Virus genome (UHGV): UHGV-0322013
Source: a virus
DNA: 31,976 nt
Direction: 5' to 3' (one strand)
Below are positions 20,456-31,976 of the stretch, one piece after another. The notes under the pieces were generated by a model. That model did not search any database and had not been told where the DNA came from. It saw nothing but the letters and a program-made list of their open reading frames with translations. The position numbers were made by a program, and so were the translations under genes. Position 1 is the stretch's first letter; each line of letters starts with the position of its first letter.

Positions 20456-20893
20456 TCATTTCAGGCACTGCGTGTTGATATATTCCTGCAGGTAGTTAAC
20501 CTGCGCGGTTATCTTGTCGATTCCACTTCGGAGACGGTAATAATTGAGTTCAGCATCTGCTGTAAGTCCTGGGCTTTCTCCATCGCCCATGCCGCTGGCT
20601 CCGGTCGTTGACTTTGCACAGGTGGCGGCGACTTGCAGGCGCTTACGCCCAGCAGAAACATCAGCACGGAGACTTTCAATAGTCGCGTTAGCATCAGCAA
20701 GCTCCTTTGTGTATCTGGCGTCAAGTTCTGCTACATCACGTTGACGCTTCTGCATGTCAGCGATTGTGGATGTGGCCTTATCGCGCTGTTCTTTATAGGC
20801 GATGGCGTTATCACGGTAATGATTAACAGCCCATGACAGGCAAACGATGATGCAGATAACCAGAGCGGAGATAATCGCGGTTACTCTGCTCAT
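20456..20893 (-). CDS. Rz: Spanin inner-membrane subunit Rz (lambda-like N-terminal half, divergent C-terminal half)
   Basis: [31 protein letters not shown] matches lambda Rz as recalled; the rest diverges; 145 aa. Confidence 0.9.
20509..20694 (-). CDS. Rz1: Spanin outer-membrane lipoprotein subunit Rz1, embedded in the +1 frame of Rz
   Basis: Internal start of track ORF 20509..20724: [20 protein letters not shown]... with lipobox and proline-rich segment, as in lambda Rz1. Confidence 0.75.
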
Positions 20894-29068: not shown

Positions 29069-29473
29069 TTAAGCCTCCTCTACTTCGTAATCAGCGAAGT
29101 AACCAGTAGACATTTTTAAAAACCTTGATTCGGTGACTGTGTAAGCCTTCCTTCCTTTCCTCTCCTTGCCTTCAGGCTCTATGAGGTGGCACGAATAAAT
29201 GATTCTGCGCTGCCAGTTGCCTGGCATTTCCACCACTGCCAGAACCTCAAGAATTCTCTTTCCTTCAGCATCAGCGGTGTAAAAACACTGATCACCATAA
29301 CCACAATCGGCTGGCTCATAATTTTTGTGACAACCGCCAATCCAGCGCTCATCGGTATGCACGTTGCCGTCATAAGACTGATAATCTGTGCATACGAAGA
29401 TAAATGGATATACGGTTTCGAACTTGTCACCGGCCTTTATGCCGGTGTTTACTTGCTTGGTTTGTCCTGGCAT
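29069..29473 (-). CDS. Hypothetical Cys/His-rich protein between cII and the replication genes
   Basis: Track ORF 29069..29680 trimmed to the ATG at 29473 with RBS AGGAG ([65 protein letters not shown]...); 134 aa. The longer form would overlap cII. Confidence 0.6.
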
Positions 29474-29482
29474 AATTACTCC

Positions 29483-29546
29483 TGTTACTTGGCGTAACAC
29501 AGTGTGCTTAAGCGTCCAGACTGCTACCAACAGCTGGGCGTTTTTC
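29483..29546 (+). ncRNA. Candidate oop-like antisense RNA overlapping the 3' end of cII
   Basis: Plus-strand promoter-like TTTACT, 17 bp, CATAAT, then a terminator inside the cII 3' end (CGTCCAG...CTGGGCG followed by TTTTTCTTTT). Arrangement mirrors lambda oop; boundaries approximate. Confidence 0.35.
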
Positions 29547-29786
29547 TTTTGTGAGAATCGATGCCACCTGCTGAGCAAGTCTCGCCATCTCATCATCAAC
29601 AACTCCCCATTCAAGAACAGCCAGAAGCATGGCCATCTTTGGGATAAAGCTGTCTTTCCATCGCGAAATTTGCGATTCATTAATCCCTAACGCGTCGGCA
29701 ACCTTTCGCTGACCACGTACAGCAATTCGATTCAGGATGTTGCTTGTAATTGCATTCGCTTTCTTGCGAGTACTTGTAAGTTGCAT
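29508..29786 (-). CDS. cII: Transcriptional activator CII
   Basis: Track ORF 29508..29846 trimmed to the ATG where the upstream DNA matches the lambda cII leader (AAGGAAATACTTACATATG); protein shares ALGINESQISRWK...MLLAVLEWGVVDDEMARLA with lambda CII (92 aa). Confidence 0.9.
   Translation of the reverse strand: MQLTSTRKKANAITSNILNRIAVRGQRKVADALGINESQISRWKDSFIPKMAMLLAVLEWGVVDDEMARLAQQVASILTKEKRPAVGSSLDA
29750..29763 (+). promoter_or_regulatory. CII-binding site of a pRE-like promoter (TTGC-N6-TTGC) inside the 5' end of cII, oriented toward cI
   Basis: Plus strand TTGCTTGTAATTGC. Confidence 0.6.
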
Positions 29787-29865
29787 ATGTAAGTATTTCC
29801 TTAGATAACAATTGATTGAATGTATGCAAATAAATGCATACACCATAGGTGTGGTTTAATTTGAT

Positions 29866-29897
29866 GCCCTTTTTCAGGGCTGGGATGTGTAAGAGCG
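29866..29897 (-). promoter_or_regulatory. nutR (boxA CGCTCTTACACA and boxB GCCCTGAAAAAGGGC) between cro and cII
   Basis: The minus strand carries both boxes in lambda nutR order; boxB is a 5-bp stem with a GAAAA loop. Confidence 0.8.
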
Positions 29898-29905
29898 TTG
29901 ATAAC

Positions 29906-30136
29906 TTAAGCAGCCATTAATTCAGGCCAGATGCTTTCCCAATCAACCGGATGAAGGTCTTTGCGAGTCACTTCACCATTGCTGAACTTCTCAATCAGAA
30001 CACAAAGTGCTGCGCCCAATTCATGATTACGGCTAAGTGCTTTCCTCAAATAGCCGATAGAAGTTCCGCACTTGGTGGCAAATTCTCTCTGCTCTTCCAG
30101 TGAAAGGGAGTTCAGATACAAGCGGAGTTCTTCCAT
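29906..30136 (-). CDS. cro: Cro-like repressor (HTH), divergent from cI
   Basis: 76-aa ORF with AAGGAG RBS, first gene of the rightward early operon opposite cI; not similar to lambda Cro. Confidence 0.7.
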   Translation of the reverse strand: MEELRLYLNSLSLEEQREFATKCGTSIGYLRKALSRNHELGAALCVLIEKFSNGEVTRKDLHPVDWESIWPELMAA

Positions 30137-30244
30137 TTGCTATCTCCTTCCCGTTGTTGAATAAGGTAAGTTTACCTGCAGGTAAAAAACAAATCAATAC
30201 CCACAGGTTATTTACCAACAGGTAATCAAAGATAGAATTAAATC
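30137..30244. promoter_or_regulatory. Right operator/promoter region (OR, pR, pRM) with repeated TTACCTGCAGGTAA-type palindromic half-sites
   Basis: TTTACCTGCAGGTAAA (about 30171-30186), CCCACAGGTTA and TTTACCAACAGGTAATC (about 30200-30228); TAGAAT -10-like hexamer 7 nt before the cI ATG (near-leaderless, as for lambda pRM). Confidence 0.7.
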
Positions 30245-30931
30245 ATGGATAAATACGAACAAAGACGACTAAGGCTGATAGAGATAAGAGACCGATTCTG
30301 TAATGGAAAGGCCTCAGAGTTGGCTCGTCGAATAGAAAGGGAACCATCATACGTTTCCAGAATGCTGTATCCGGAAGGAAAAAGCGGAAAAAAACGCATT
30401 GCTGACGATATGATGGAACTAATTGAAAAATCTTTTAATCTCCCACGCGGATGGATGGACATGCTTGCAGATAGCAAAGTTGGATCTGCAGACCATCTTG
30501 AGTTTGCGGGTAACGTTCGTGCGGGTTTTGTTCCGGTAATTGGTGAAGCCGTTTTGGGAGTTGATGGCTCAGTGGATATGATTGAATTCAGATCCGGTTG
30601 GTTAAGCATCTACAGTGGCGATAAAGATGCTTACGGTCTGAAGGTTAAGGGTGACAGCATGTGGCCAAGGATTCAGTCAGGAGAATATGTTGTTATTGAA
30701 CCAAATACGCCAGTACATCCAGGTGATGAAGTCTTTGTAAGGACCAAAGATGGTCATAACATGATAAAGATCATGAACAAAACAAGAGACGGAGACTATC
30801 AGTTTAGTAGTATAAACAGCGATCACCGTCCAATCACTCTTCCTGTTGAAGAAGTTGATAAAATGCATTTTGTTTCAGCTATTGTGAAACACACTAGGTA
30901 CGTAGACCAGGACGATCTGCCAAAATTTTGA
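30245..30931 (+). CDS. cI: CI-type prophage repressor (N-terminal HTH, C-terminal LexA/S24-like autocleavage domain)
   Basis: 228 aa; C-terminal domain with GDSMWPRI and downstream lysine, typical of S24 peptidase-type repressors; divergent from cro across the operator region. Confidence 0.85.
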   Translation: MDKYEQRRLRLIEIRDRFCNGKASELARRIEREPSYVSRMLYPEGKSGKKRIADDMMELIEKSFNLPRGWMDMLADSKVGSADHLEFAGNVRAGFVPVIGEAVLGVDGSVDMIEFRSGWLSIYSGDKDAYGLKVKGDSMWPRIQSGEYVVIEPNTPVHPGDEVFVRTKDGHNMIKIMNKTRDGDYQFSSINSDHRPITLPVEEVDKMHFVSAIVKHTRYVDQDDLPKF

Positions 30932-30945
30932 GGATAAAGCAGCAA

Positions 30946-31242
30946 ATGTTTATACCAGGTATAGTGGTCGCTGTTGTAATCATCTGCTTCATATGGGCAA
31001 AGTTATCTCCTGTAAGCTCTAAGCATACAGCTGAACTCATGAAGAAGAAGCATCTTATACATGAGGCAGAAACGATAATTAAGAAGTTCAAAGGCATGTC
31101 ATATGACGACATGTCATCAGATCAGATTGCTATATATAAATGCGCCATTGAGCGTCTTGACTACTTAAACGGACTCAAACCCAAACACACCCCGGTAGAA
31201 TCAAAATTGCCGCAATGGCCAAGCAATCCAAATAGCTTCTGA
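30946..31242 (+). CDS. Small membrane protein co-transcribed with cI (rexAB position); unknown function
   Basis: Track ORF 30928..31242 overlaps the cI stop; probable ATG at 30946: MFIPGIVVAVVIICFIWAKLSPVSS... (98 aa, one N-terminal TM helix then a charged soluble region); followed by a terminator and then OL/pL. Confidence 0.6.
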   Translation: MFIPGIVVAVVIICFIWAKLSPVSSKHTAELMKKKHLIHEAETIIKKFKGMSYDDMSSDQIAIYKCAIERLDYLNGLKPKHTPVESKLPQWPSNPNSF

Positions 31243-31253
31243 CATCTCCTTTC

Positions 31254-31277
31254 AGCCCGCAAAGCGGGCTTTTTTAT
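31254..31277 (+). terminator. tImm-like rho-independent terminator ending the cI operon
   Basis: AGCCCGC-AAA-GCGGGCT followed by TTTTTTAT. Confidence 0.7.
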
Positions 31278-31296
31278 ATCAATCCAAAAAATTAAT

Positions 31297-31380
31297 TACC
31301 TGAAAATTCAAACAGGTAAACTCTCACACCAATTTTATTTACCTGCAGGTATAGACAACAGTTTTACCTGTAGGTATATT
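31297..31380. promoter_or_regulatory. Left operator/promoter region (OL, pL) with three TACCTG...CAGGTA operator sites
   Basis: TTACCTGAAAATTCAAACAGGTAA, TTTACCTGCAGGTATA and TTTACCTGTAGGTATATT; candidate pL -35 TAGACA and -10 TATATT spaced 17 bp. Confidence 0.65.
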
Positions 31381-31420
31381 TTAAGCCATCAGCAGGACGC
31401 ACTAACCACCATGAAGGTGA

Positions 31421-31451
31421 TGCTCTTAAAAATTTAGCCCTGAAGAAGGGC
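31421..31451 (+). promoter_or_regulatory. nutL (boxA GCTCTTAAA and boxB GCCCTGAAGAAGGGC)
   Basis: TGCTCTTAAAAATTTAGCCCTGAAGAAGGGCAGCATTCAAAGCAGAAGGCTTTGGGGTGTG matches lambda nutL as recalled. Confidence 0.85.
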
Positions 31452-31719
31452 AGCATTCAAAGCAGAAGGCTTTGGGGTGTGGTGAAGCCAGCTAGTCACT
31501 GGCAAGTGCTTACCTACTGTTGAGCGGTGAAGCGCTCCCAACGCTAGCAATAGCGTGGACGAGATGGGGAGCCGCGGGCGATAAGGCCGCCATAACGCGC
31601 ACGTTGTCGCATGGAAAAATCACTGGGGTGCCGGTTATACCCCTCCGAATGAGACTCAACAAGCTGGAGCTAGACTACCAGCCACCACACCACCAAAGCT
31701 AACTGACAGGAGAATCCAG

Positions 31720-31976
31720 ATGGATGCACAAACACGCCGCCGCGAACGTCGCGCAGAGAAACAGGCTCAATGGAAAGCAGCAAATCCCCTGTTGGTTGGG
31801 GTAAGCGCAAAACCAGTTAACCGCCCTATTCTCTCGCTGAATCGCAAACCGAAATCACGAGTAGAAAGCGCACTGAATCCGATAGACCTTACGGTGCTGG
31901 CTGAATACCACGAACAGATTGAAAGCAACCTGCAACGTATTGAGCGCAAGAATCAGCGCACATGGTACAGCAAGCC
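31720..31976 (+). CDS. N: Antitermination protein N (lambda N), 5' partial; continues beyond the window
   Basis: MDAQTRRRERRAEKQAQWKAANPLLVGVSAKPVNRPILSLNRKPKSRVESALNPIDLTVLAEYHEQIESNLQRIERKNQRTWYSK is essentially identical to lambda N over the 85 visible residues; RBS AGGAG. Confidence 0.95.
   Translation, partial: MDAQTRRRERRAEKQAQWKAANPLLVGVSAKPVNRPILSLNRKPKSRVESALNPIDLTVLAEYHEQIESNLQRIERKNQRTWYSK

What the first reader, a model, noticed from the sequence alone, without database searches (positions are those of the whole stretch)
30137..31380. Immunity specificity defined by a 12-bp palindromic operator motif, TACCTGCAGGTA
Both OR and OL contain three related sites built around TTACCTG...CAGGTAA, one with a perfect PstI-containing palindrome. 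This differs from the lambda, 434 and P22 operators as I recall them, implying an immunity group distinct from the lambda-type N system that flanks it.
Basis: partly seen in the sequence, partly recalled or inferred. Interest (0 to 1): 0.4.

Follow-up and report, generated by a model that had tools for sequence, protein, structure and literature searches.

The report
mEp043-type phage immunity operators (TACC-N4-GGTA)
This is the on/off switch of a P22-like E. coli prophage, an ordinary lambda-style repressor/Cro/operator module of the already sequenced mEp043 immunity type; its real recognition motif is TACC-N4-GGTA, not the PstI palindrome.

Summary
The repeated motif is real and far beyond chance. 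TACC-N4-GGTA occurs four times in 32 kb (0.14 expected), all at OR or OL. A fifth site, OR2, has one core mismatch.

Two details of the observation are off. OL has two canonical sites plus an odd split pair (TTACCTG-N10-CAGGTAA), not three related sites. The PstI core TGCA is incidental.

The region is 97% identical to phage mEp043, which is sequenced and functionally placed in its own immunity group, though I found no published description of its operators. It sits in 52 of 5,426 complete E. coli genomes.

The repressor is a mosaic. Its S24 autocleavage domain resembles that of H-19B and 933W cI. Its N-terminal helix-turn-helix domain is unrelated to theirs.

That N-terminal domain, a Cro partner and the operators travel together. 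In 35 of 38 prophage loci, from Escherichia to Neisseria and Burkholderia, the motif lies at -73 and/or -33 from the repressor start. H-19B and 933W-type loci lack it. The central four bases vary freely, mostly as YRYR.

The closest solved structure is the Salmonella phage SPC32H Rep. Its own locus has the same half-sites with a 5-bp centre.

Verdict: an ordinary lambdoid switch and a new member of a known kind. The distinct-immunity reading is supported.

The parts
29906..30136 (-). cro (76 aa), a YdaS/Cro-like HTH protein transcribed from PR
   Evidence: ORF. Matches phrog_35 'transcriptional repressor' at 7.5e-16. Pfam YdaS_toxin scores 26 bits, below its cutoff of 30. Homologues diverge from the repressor in 37 of 45 loci that carry the NTD.
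30169..30197 (-). Inferred PR: -35 TTGATT (reverse complement of 30192-30197), 17-nt spacer, -10 TAAACT (reverse complement of 30169-30174)
   Evidence: Read directly from the sequence. It scores 8/12, so it falls below the threshold of the scan. The TCAA next to OR2 (= TTGA of the -35) is near-invariant in 30 loci (OR2 matrix positions -3 to 0). This assignment is an inference.
30173..30184 (.). OR1, TACCTGCAGGTA (perfect core); overlaps the PR -10 and spacer
   Evidence: An equivalent site lies at -72/-73 from the repressor ATG in 39 of 40 loci.
30198..30209 (.). OR2, TACCCACAGGTT (one core mismatch); abuts the PR -35; centre at -41.5 from the inferred PRM start
   Evidence: In the family it lies 25 bp from OR1 in 31 of 39 loci (24-26 bp in all) and usually has one mismatch in its right half.
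30213..30224 (.). OR3, TACCAACAGGTA; overlaps the PRM -35 and spacer
   Evidence: A site lies at -32/-33 from the ATG, with an exact core in 26 of 39 loci.
30211..30238 (+). PRM-like promoter TTTACC-16-TAGAAT; the cI ATG is 7 nt after the -10, implying a leaderless cI mRNA
   Evidence: Promoter scan, 9/12. A TAnAAT-like hexamer 6-7 nt before the ATG, with no Shine-Dalgarno sequence, recurs in many loci. Function is inferred.
30245..30931 (+). cI repressor (228 aa). NTD, residues 1-78: HTH, with the recognition helix predicted at residues 34-40 (PSYVSRM). CTD: S24 peptidase, with the GDSM serine at S138 and K175
   Evidence: Pfam Peptidase_S24 1.4e-17. The CTD resembles H-19B/933W cI (~65% identity by tblastn) but the NTD is unrelated. 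AF2 model of the NTD has pLDDT 90. Foldseek top hit is 5d50, TM 0.85. The protein is 98% identical to mEp043 cI.
30928..31242 (+). Small ORF (104 aa from TTG 30928, or 98 aa from ATG 30946) co-transcribed with cI, in the position of lambda rex; function unknown
   Evidence: Matches phrog_10450 (unknown function) at 3e-55. Found only in mEp043-type loci.
31254..31277 (+). Intrinsic terminator ending the cI operon
   Evidence: 7-bp stem with 6 GC pairs, followed by a T run.
31296..31319 (.). Split pair of half-sites, TTACCTG-N10-CAGGTAA; a possible weak or auxiliary 'OL3'
   Evidence: 2 matches to the gapped pattern, 0 expected. Present only in close relatives. Function not established.
31340..31351 (.). 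OL2, TACCTGCAGGTA; immediately upstream of the PL -35
   Evidence: Pairs 25-26 bp apart downstream of the repressor gene are found in 18 of 38 genome loci.
31365..31376 (.). OL1, TACCTGTAGGTA; overlaps the PL spacer and -10
31352..31380 (+). PL: TAGACA-17-TATATT; inferred start at A31388
   Evidence: Promoter scan, 10/12. The same site is annotated 'putative PL' in mEp043. Homology to the lambda PL transcript begins at 31384.
31421..31451 (+). nutL (boxA TGCTCTTAA, boxB GCCCTGAAGAAGGGC) of the lambda-type N system; lies outside the immunity module
   Evidence: Sequence. nutL boxA and boxB are annotated on matching records such as HK544 and Sf6.

Best explanation
This is the immunity (lysis-lysogeny) switch of a P22-like E. 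coli prophage, of the mEp043 immunity type.

The players:
- A LexA-like cI repressor. Its N-terminal five-helix HTH domain is joined to an S24 autocleavage domain of the H-19B/933W kind.
- A small YdaS/Cro-like protein.
- Both are inferred to bind as dimers to palindromic operators of consensus T-TACC-YRYR-GGTA-A.

Recognition:
- The outer TACC/GGTA blocks are the base-specific contacts. They are probably read by the invariant S35, Y36 and R39 of the recognition helix.
- The central four bases are not read base by base. They probably tune affinity through DNA shape.

Control logic, all inferred from geometry:
- OR1 covers the PR -10 and OR2 abuts the PR -35, so repressor at these sites shuts off cro and the early right operon.
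- OR2 is centred at -41.5 of PRM, the position from which lambda cI activates PRM.
- OR3 lies on the PRM -35, so it would auto-repress cI.
- cI mRNA from PRM is leaderless.
- OL1 and OL2 cover PL in the same way and shut off the lambda-type N operon.
- Induction is by RecA-stimulated self-cleavage of the shared S24 domain, probably at L104-G105.

What is shown and what is inferred:
- Shown here: the sites, their enrichment, their co-inheritance with the NTD and Cro, the fold, the S24 domain and the mosaic boundaries.
- Inferred: who binds where, the promoter assignments, activation and autorepression, and the cleavage site.
For: Motif enrichment:
- 4 exact TACC-N4-GGTA sites against 0.14 expected, all at OR or OL.

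The motif follows the NTD, not the CTD:
- Across 38 species-representative loci encoding the NTD, there are 60 exact hits in the 4,940 bp upstream of the repressor genes, at -72/-73 and -32/-33. The remaining 224 kb has 49 hits, of which 36 form 18 pairs 25-26 bp apart.
- H-19B and phi24B (933W-type) share only the CTD and have no such site.
- OR geometry is fixed: OR2 at +24 to +26 and OR3 at +39 to +40 from OR1 in all 39 loci scored.
- Cro homologues co-occur in 37 of 45 loci and are absent from H-19B and phi24B.

Where variation falls:
- Among six close relatives, 0 of 40 core positions vary against 9 of 20 centre positions (p=1e-5).
- The centre is YRYR in 66 of 116 sites, against about 6% expected by chance.

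The protein:
- NTD model pLDDT 90, with HTH helices at 23-29 and 34-40.
- Foldseek top hit is SPC32H Rep (5d50), TM 0.85 and 1.6 A, followed by XRE-type regulators.
- Y36, R39, M40 and L41 are invariant in the family.
- S24 domain hit at 1.4e-17. L104 and G105 are invariant with H-19B and 933W.

Promoters, terminator and function:
- PL, PRM and the terminator are found by the consensus scan.
- mEp043 is in a functionally separate immunity group (PMC3442831).
Against: - No binding experiment exists for this repressor or for mEp043 in the literature I could search.
- PR reaches only 8/12 to consensus and was not called by the scan.
- OR2 and OR3 are 15 bp centre to centre, about 1.4 helical turns. 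That is tighter than in lambda, and two dimers may clash or lie on different faces of the helix.
- OR2 is intrinsically weaker than OR3 in most loci. This is unlike lambda and would need cooperativity, yet the related 933W repressor is reported not to bind cooperatively (PMC3317979).
- The closest solved homologue, SPC32H Rep, is reported to bind as a tetramer with DNA-binding pairs drawn from different dimers (PMC9638917). A simple dimer model is therefore not guaranteed.
- The site logos are partly circular, because sites were chosen by their TACC/GGTA match.
Confidence: 0.85

Rival explanations
1. The components are the same, but binding is non-canonical, as in SPC32H Rep. The repressor acts as a tetramer (a dimer of dimers) in which NTDs from different dimers pair on each palindrome. 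One tetramer would occupy the closely spaced OR2+OR3 pair (15 bp apart), or bridge OR1/OR2 and OL1/OL2, rather than independent dimers filling sites in order of affinity.
For: - The NTD's nearest solved relative is SPC32H Rep.
- The SPC32H locus itself has the same TTACC/GGTAA half-sites in adjacent pairs 17 bp apart.
- Rep is reported to bind DNA as a tetramer, with the pairs that bind each palindrome coming from different dimers (PMC9638917).
- The 15-bp OR2-OR3 spacing is strictly conserved, which suggests a fixed protein geometry.
Against: - Tetramerisation in Rep resides in its own C-terminal domain (PMC9986798). The window's cI lacks that domain and has an S24 domain of the 933W/H-19B kind instead.
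- The same operator layout is kept whichever of at least three C-terminal modules is attached. This argues that the layout is dictated by the promoters and the NTD, not by one particular oligomer.
Confidence: 0.1
2. One reading: immunity specificity is set by the full 12-bp palindrome TACCTGCAGGTA, including the PstI core. On this view variants of the centre would define different immunities.
For: - The exact 12-mer occurs twice, at OR1 and OL2.
- Centre positions are the most variable positions among close relatives. That could in principle mean diverging specificities.
Against: - Within one phage the five sites already carry different centres (TGCA, CACA, AACA, TGCA, TGTA), and a single repressor must bind all of them.
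- mEp043, with a 98.7% identical NTD, has no TGCA centre at its four TACC-N4-GGTA sites; its OR2 centre is CATA.
- Only 4 of 116 family sites have TGCA.
Confidence: 0.03
3. The repeats are chance, or are non-regulatory repeats such as recombination scars or host-factor sites.
For: Short two-copy repeats are common, and one unrelated 1-mismatch match lies at 20483.
Against: - Enrichment: 4 sites observed against 0.14 expected, with none outside OR and OL.
- The position relative to the repressor start is fixed in 35 of 38 loci across two proteobacterial classes.
- The sites overlap promoter hexamers.
Confidence: 0.01

Closest known systems
Phage mEp043 immunity region (JQ182734 / NC_019706 / PV340537)
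   Same: - 96.9% nucleotide identity over cro-OR-cI-small ORF-OL.
- cI is 98% identical and its NTD 98.7%.
- The same five operator positions, the same split site, and the same lambda-type nutL-N next door.
- Reported as its own immunity group (PMC3442831).
   Different: - The operator centres differ at four of the five sites: OR1 TGCA/TGTA, OR2 CACA/CATA, OR3 AACA/GGCA, OL2 TGCA/TATA; OL1 is TGTA in both.
- The rest of the genome differs. The window is a P22-like phage related to HZ41, IME10 and CUS-3, whereas mEp043 is an Aguilavirus.
- In the mEp043 record only a 'putative PL' is annotated, and no operators.
933W / H-19B cI repressors (Stx phages)
   Same: - The C-terminal S24 autocleavage and dimerisation domain is shared: about 65% identity over 135 residues, with L104-G105, GDSM and the lysine all conserved.
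- The gene order cro-OR-cI is the same.
   Different: - The NTD is unrelated in sequence.
- 933W operators are 15 bp with an odd centre and a G-A-A-C half-site at positions 2-5 (PMC3317979).
- There is no TACC-N4-GGTA in the H-19B or phi24B loci.
- The Cro proteins are not homologous.
Salmonella phage SPC32H / epsilon15 Rep (PDB 5d50, 5d4z)
   Same: - It is the closest solved structure to the NTD: TM 0.85, 1.6 A over 72 residues, 26% identity, with profile E=0.06 over the full NTD.
- Its own control region carries the same TTACC/GGTAA half-sites, with adjacent sites and a TCAA just upstream.
   Different: - The half-sites are spaced N5, not N4.
- The recognition helix differs (QNLVNRW against PSYVSRM), and Rep lacks the 5-residue YPEGK loop insertion.
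- The C-terminal domain is a tetramerisation and Ant-binding domain, not S24, and induction is by an antirepressor (PMC9638917, PMC9986798).
Lambda OR/OL switch
   Same: - Divergent cI and cro around a tripartite OR.
- O1 lies over the -10 and O2 is near the -35.
- OR2 is centred about -42 from PRM.
- The cI mRNA is leaderless.
- cI has an HTH NTD plus an S24 CTD.
- OL/PL drives an N gene with nutL.
- These parallels draw on established knowledge of lambda.
   Different: - The operator sequence and length differ: a 12-14 bp even palindrome against lambda's 17 bp.
- OR2-OR3 spacing is 15 bp, against 23 bp in lambda.
- OR3 is not the weakest site by sequence.
- OL has two canonical sites.
- There is no DNA or NTD similarity to lambda.

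Membership tests
Lambdoid immunity module (cI / OR / cro plus OL-PL) | Divergently transcribed repressor and cro genes flanking an intergenic region with repeated palindromic operators that overlap the promoters | tested here: met
   ORFs, sites, and promoter overlaps and direct reading of the sequence.
Lambdoid immunity module (cI / OR / cro plus OL-PL) | A second operator cluster of the same motif over the leftward early promoter, upstream of an antiterminator gene | tested here: met
   OL1 and OL2 at 31365 and 31340 overlap PL at 31352-31380. nutL and lambda-type N lie downstream.
Lambdoid immunity module (cI / OR / cro plus OL-PL) | A repressor made of an HTH DNA-binding domain plus a LexA/S24 autocleavage domain | tested here: met
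   Pfam S24 at 1.4e-17. The NTD has an XRE-like HTH fold by AF2 and Foldseek.
Lambdoid immunity module (cI / OR / cro plus OL-PL) | The repressor and Cro actually bind these sites, and RecA induces cleavage | not testable with these tools
   This needs EMSA or footprinting and a RecA cleavage assay.
mEp043 immunity group | Near-identical repressor DNA-binding domain and operator half-sites | tested here: met
   The NTD is 98.7% identical. All TACC/GGTA cores are identical.
mEp043 immunity group | Reciprocal cross-immunity in plating tests | not testable with these tools
   Only mEp043's own group assignment is reported (PMC3442831).
933W / H-19B immunity | The same DNA-binding domain and the 15-bp operators with G-A-A-C at half-site positions 2-5 | tested here: not met
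   The NTD is unrelated. No motif is shared. Only the CTD is shared.
Lambda, 434 and P22 immunities | Sequence similarity of the immunity region or of the repressor NTD | tested here: not met
   Megablast of 29900-31400 hits only mEp043. tblastn with the NTD at E<=0.01 does not return lambda, 434 or P22, although these records are in the collection.
SPC32H Rep-like NTD family | The same fold, with detectable sequence homology of the NTD | tested here: met
   Foldseek TM 0.85, probability 1.00. Profile E=0.06 over the full length, which is marginal by sequence.
SPC32H Rep-like NTD family | The same operator spacing and C-terminal tetramerisation/Ant-binding domain | tested here: not met
   N4 here against N5 in SPC32H. 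The CTD here is S24.

The most novel reading that the evidence does not exclude
The cro/operator/cI-NTD cassette is one ancient and very widely shared specificity. The half-site, spacing, recognition helix and promoter layout are identical from Escherichia to Neisseria, Burkholderia and Xanthomonas phages.

Phages would then diversify immunity not by changing the contacted bases but in two other ways:
- by rapidly changing the uncontacted operator centres, which are hypervariable among near-identical E. coli prophages, so that affinity is tuned by indirect readout;
- by swapping the C-terminal induction module among an S24 of the 933W type, another S24, and a short tail that depends on an antirepressor.

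If so, prophages in different genera could cross-repress one another. A one-base change in half-site spacing (N4 against N5), linked to a 5-residue loop insertion, would mark the real specificity boundary with the SPC32H and SfV types.
Probability: 0.2. Interest if true: 0.5.

Novelty: new member of a known kind. Interest (0 to 1): 0.3.

Why it matters
Taken alone, this is a routine annotation result. The window carries the mEp043-type immunity module on a P22-like backbone, which illustrates lambdoid mosaicism. The right-hand junction falls within four bases of the PL start, and a second junction lies inside cI, between the DNA-binding and cleavage domains.

What the comparative work adds:
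- a concrete operator definition (T-TACC-YRYR-GGTA-A), testable by experiment;
- a promoter map for an immunity group that, as far as I could search, has no published operator analysis;
- evidence that this uncurated HTH subfamily (about 1,000 clusters at 50% identity, no Pfam model) carries its operators and Cro with it across Gamma- and Betaproteobacteria.

This helps in predicting prophage cross-immunity and in annotating repressors now labelled 'hypothetical' or just 'S24 family peptidase'.

Tried and rejected
- **Literature search for the operator strings.** TACCTGCAGGTA and six variants returned only unrelated primer hits.
- **mEp043 literature.** It holds no operator or repressor biochemistry.
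- **Primary papers not held in the library.** These were SPC32H Rep (PNAS 2016, J Virol 2013) and the 933W repressor (J Bacteriol 2004). As a result, Rep's published operators and the 933W Leu-Gly cleavage site rest on secondary sources or my memory.
- **Pfam on the NTD.** No HTH family matched; the only hit was a sub-threshold MarR match at E=0.08. The fold had to be established by structure prediction instead.
- **933W-like operators.** Suggested by the mEp043 annotation 'similar to CI of 933W'. Rejected, because only the CTD is shared.
- **PstI site as a functional element.** Rejected, because it is not conserved even in mEp043.
- **Split site as a conserved OL3.** Rejected as a family feature, because it is absent from CharmingMan, Yersinia, Serratia and the MAG loci.
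- **Rfam on the OL/nutL/N leader.** Nothing reached a gathering score.
Full report
**1. What is in the window**

Reading 29400-31976 and listing ORFs shows a lambdoid early region in reverse orientation. From left to right:
- a DnaB-like P gene and an O-like gene;
- a cII gene (Pfam Phage_CII, 4.5e-43);
- a 76-aa cro on the minus strand (29906-30136);
- a 108-bp intergenic OR (30137-30244);
- a 228-aa cI on the plus strand (30245-30931);
- a 104-aa ORF (30928-31242);
- an intrinsic terminator (31254-31270);
- OL/PL (31290-31380);
- nutL and a lambda-type N gene (from 31721) that runs off the window.

The first 25 kb is a P22-like virion and lysis module related to HZ41, IME10 and CUS-3.

**2. 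Checking the observation**

TACCTGCAGGTA is exact at 30173 and 31340. It has 1 mismatch at 31365, 2 at 30213 and 3 at 30198. The relaxed pattern TACCNNNNGGTA gives 4 hits against 0.14 expected, with 0 of 100 shuffles reaching 4. All four lie in OR or OL.

OR therefore has three sites, with starts 25 and 15 bp apart. OL has two canonical sites 25 bp apart.

It is kept in mEp043 and four other close relatives, but these are 96-99.7% identical overall. Zero of 14 variable arm positions is not significant (p=0.6). It is absent from all distant loci of the family.

**3. Identity of the region**

- Megablast of 29900-31400 against 50,697 phage records hits only mEp043, in three records at 96.9% identity.
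- The mEp043 records annotate cI, Cro, a hypothetical protein and a 'putative PL', but no operators.
- The module is in 52 of 5,426 complete E. coli genomes, always chromosomal and single copy.
- mEp043 is one of Kameyama's Mexican coliphages. It is stated to belong to an immunity group separate from lambda, HK022 and the other phages of that set (PMC3442831; PMC9836094).
- I found no paper printing these operator sequences in a phage context and no repressor biochemistry for mEp043.

**4. The repressor is a mosaic, and the motif follows its N-terminal domain**

The mEp043 record calls cI 'similar to 933W CI'. Alignment shows that this applies only to the C-terminal S24 domain. From about residue 83 the sequence is largely conserved with H-19B and 933W-type cI, whereas residues 1-80 are unrelated (CTD about 65% identity by tblastn).

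933W operators, defined experimentally, are 15 bp with an odd centre and G-A-A-C at half-site positions 2-5 (PMC3317979). The phi24B and H-19B control regions contain no TACC-N4-GGTA.

Searching with the NTD alone gave these results:
- It is 70-81% identical in roughly 135-aa proteins of Yersinia, Serratia, Arsenophonus and others that lack S24, and 77% identical in phage CharmingMan, where it is fused to a different S24 domain.
- All of these sit in the same context, cro-like gene then OR then repressor, with cII, O and P beyond.
- Every one carries TACC-N4-GGTA in register.

A scan of one genome per bacterial species found 38 loci in Gamma- and Betaproteobacteria:
- In 35 of them an exact site lies at -72/-73 and/or -32/-33 from the repressor ATG.
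- That is 60 exact hits in 4,940 bp upstream, where about 0.08 is expected.
- The remaining 224 kb has 49 hits, of which 36 form 18 pairs 25-26 bp apart downstream of the repressor gene, the equivalent of OL.
- OR geometry is essentially fixed: OR2 at +24 to +26 and OR3 at +39 to +40 from OR1 in all 39 loci scored.

Cro homologues co-occur in 37 of 45 loci. They are missing from H-19B and phi24B, and from a Klebsiella-centred subgroup that also lacks OR2.

The evolutionary and functional unit is therefore cro + operators + cI-NTD, and C-terminal modules are exchanged freely. The NTD family is large, with 1,045 clusters at 50% identity at E<=1e-3, and it matches no Pfam model.

**5. What the operator really is**

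- Positions that were not used to pick the sites still carry information. There is a T (or A) just outside TACC, a pyrimidine at the first central position and a purine at the last. The centre is YRYR in 66 of 116 distinct strong sites, against about 6% by chance.
- TGCA accounts for 4 of those 116 sites.
- Among six close relatives, all operator substitutions fall in the central tetranucleotides (9 of 20 positions vary). None falls in the 40 core positions, and 14 of 192 other intergenic positions vary (centre against other p=3e-5; core against centre p=1e-5).
- The consensus is T-TACC-YRYR-GGTA-A. The outer blocks are the constrained, presumably contacted, bases. The centre is free, and even unusually variable.
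- This resembles the way 434 and P22 operator centres act through DNA shape. That comparison is my inference from established knowledge of those systems.

**6. Fold of the DNA-binding domain**

- An AlphaFold2 model of residues 1-74, built on 18 homologues, has pLDDT 90.4, with helices at 3-18, 23-29, 34-40 and 54-63.
- Foldseek against the PDB ranks the Rep-Ant complex of a Salmonella temperate phage first (5d50; TM 0.85, 1.6 A over 72 residues, 26% identity). XRE-type regulators such as C.Esp1396I, ClgR and HigA follow.
- A sequence profile also puts 5d50 first, at E=0.06 over the full NTD.
- That chain is SPC32H Rep, at 100% identity.
- The predicted recognition helix is P34-S-Y-V-S-R-M40. 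Y36, R39, M40 and L41 are invariant across the family. A basic loop, YPEGKxGKKRI, follows it.

SPC32H's own control region has ATTACC-ATTAT-GGTAAT and TTACC-TTTAT-GGTAAT, the same half-sites with a 5-bp centre, at five places. SfV cI (39% NTD identity) also has a TACC-N5-GGTA. Both proteins lack the 5-residue loop insertion. Xanthomonas phage Rb1 and Mannheimia phage 587AP2 have the loop and keep N4 and the same OR layout. This correlation rests on few cases.

**7. Inferred mechanism**

The promoter scan finds PL (TAGACA-17-TATATT, 31352-31380, 10/12) and a PRM-like promoter (TTTACC-16-TAGAAT, 30211-30238, 9/12).
- *PL.* OL1 overlaps the PL spacer and -10, and OL2 abuts the -35.
- *PRM.* Its -35 is the left half of OR3. 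The cI ATG starts 7 nt after the -10 with no Shine-Dalgarno sequence, a pattern repeated across loci, so cI mRNA is probably leaderless, as in lambda. OR2 is centred at -41.5 from that start, the position from which lambda cI activates PRM.
- *PR.* I read it by eye on the minus strand: -35 TTGATT, 17 nt, -10 TAAACT. It scores only 8/12 and the scan did not call it. However, the TCAA next to OR2 (= TTGA of the -35) is near-invariant in the family. OR1 covers the -10.
- *CTD.* It has GDSM (S138) and K175 spaced as in LexA. L104-G105 is invariant with H-19B and 933W. From memory, 933W cleaves at a Leu-Gly; I could not verify this.

All binding, activation, autorepression and cleavage statements are inferences.

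*Points of unease.* OR2 is usually the weakest site by sequence, while OR3 is often perfect. OR2 and OR3 are only 15 bp apart. The related 933W repressor is reported to be non-cooperative. SPC32H Rep binds as a tetramer. The tetramer mode is the main rival model. I rate it low for this cI because Rep's tetramerisation domain is absent here.

**8. Mosaic boundaries**

Homology to lambda, Sf6, HK446 and others starts at 31384, four bases before the inferred PL +1 at A31388. A second junction lies inside cI at about residue 80.

**9. Verdict**

This is an ordinary lambdoid immunity switch of the mEp043 type on a P22-like backbone.
- It is a new member of a known kind.
- The modest added value is an operator definition and promoter map for an immunity group with no published operator analysis that I could find, and the demonstration that this cassette is conserved across two proteobacterial classes.

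Noticed in passing
window 30177-30180, 30202-30205, 30217-30220, 31344-31347, 31369-31372: The central four bases of the operators are the most variable positions among six near-identical copies. Nine of 20 centre positions vary, against 14 of 192 other intergenic positions (p=3e-5), and 0 of 40 in the TACC/GGTA cores. This could reflect affinity tuning, diversifying selection, or gene conversion between sites.
   Followed up: partly
L050 (SPC32H) 1104, 1121, 1845, 1907, 1983; L051 (SfV) 1457: Repressors with a related NTD but without the 5-residue YPEGK loop insertion have the same TACC/GGTA half-sites spaced N5 instead of N4. NTDs with the loop, including Xanthomonas Rb1 and Mannheimia 587AP2, have N4. 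This suggests a possible spacing rule, but it rests on few cases.
   Followed up: partly
L006-L009 3001-3414 and many P00xx proteins: The same NTD is fused to a short tail of about 60 aa with no S24 domain in roughly 135-aa repressors of Yersinia, Serratia, Arsenophonus and others. In the Yersinia loci a Bro-N-domain gene lies downstream. These prophages are probably induced by an antirepressor rather than by RecA cleavage.
   Followed up: no
window 30928-31242 (+): A 104-aa ORF (98 aa from ATG 30946) with a hydrophobic N-terminus overlaps the cI stop codon and lies before the terminator, in the position of lambda rex. It matches phrog_10450 (unknown function) and is found only in mEp043-type loci. 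It is a candidate lysogen-expressed exclusion or defence gene.
   Followed up: partly
window 31470-31700 (+): The PL leader between nutL and N contains a GC-rich segment of about 200 nt. It is absent from lambda but present in Sf6, HK446 and mEp043. It folds well beyond shuffled controls (-92.5 kcal/mol, z=-3.6) and is closed by a long-range helix. No Rfam family matches it.
   Followed up: partly
L054 641-1329 (E. coli HH97): This genome's copy of the cI gene is annotated as frameshifted. Its cro ribosome-binding region also carries an insertion and substitutions. It is possibly a decaying prophage.
   Followed up: no
L024, L025, L029-L031 (Klebsiella spp.): This subgroup keeps the NTD and an OR1-like site at -73. 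It lacks the Cro homologue and the OR2 site, and has a different sequence (TTGCTATATTTT) in their place. Its C-terminal domain is a more distant S24 (about 31% identity).
   Followed up: no
window 29766-29779 (approximate): A TTGC-N6-TTGT sequence lies inside the start of cII. It corresponds to the 'putative lambda cII binding site TTGC-N6-TTGC' annotated in mEp043, and so marks a probable PRE for establishment of repression. It has one mismatch here.
   Followed up: no
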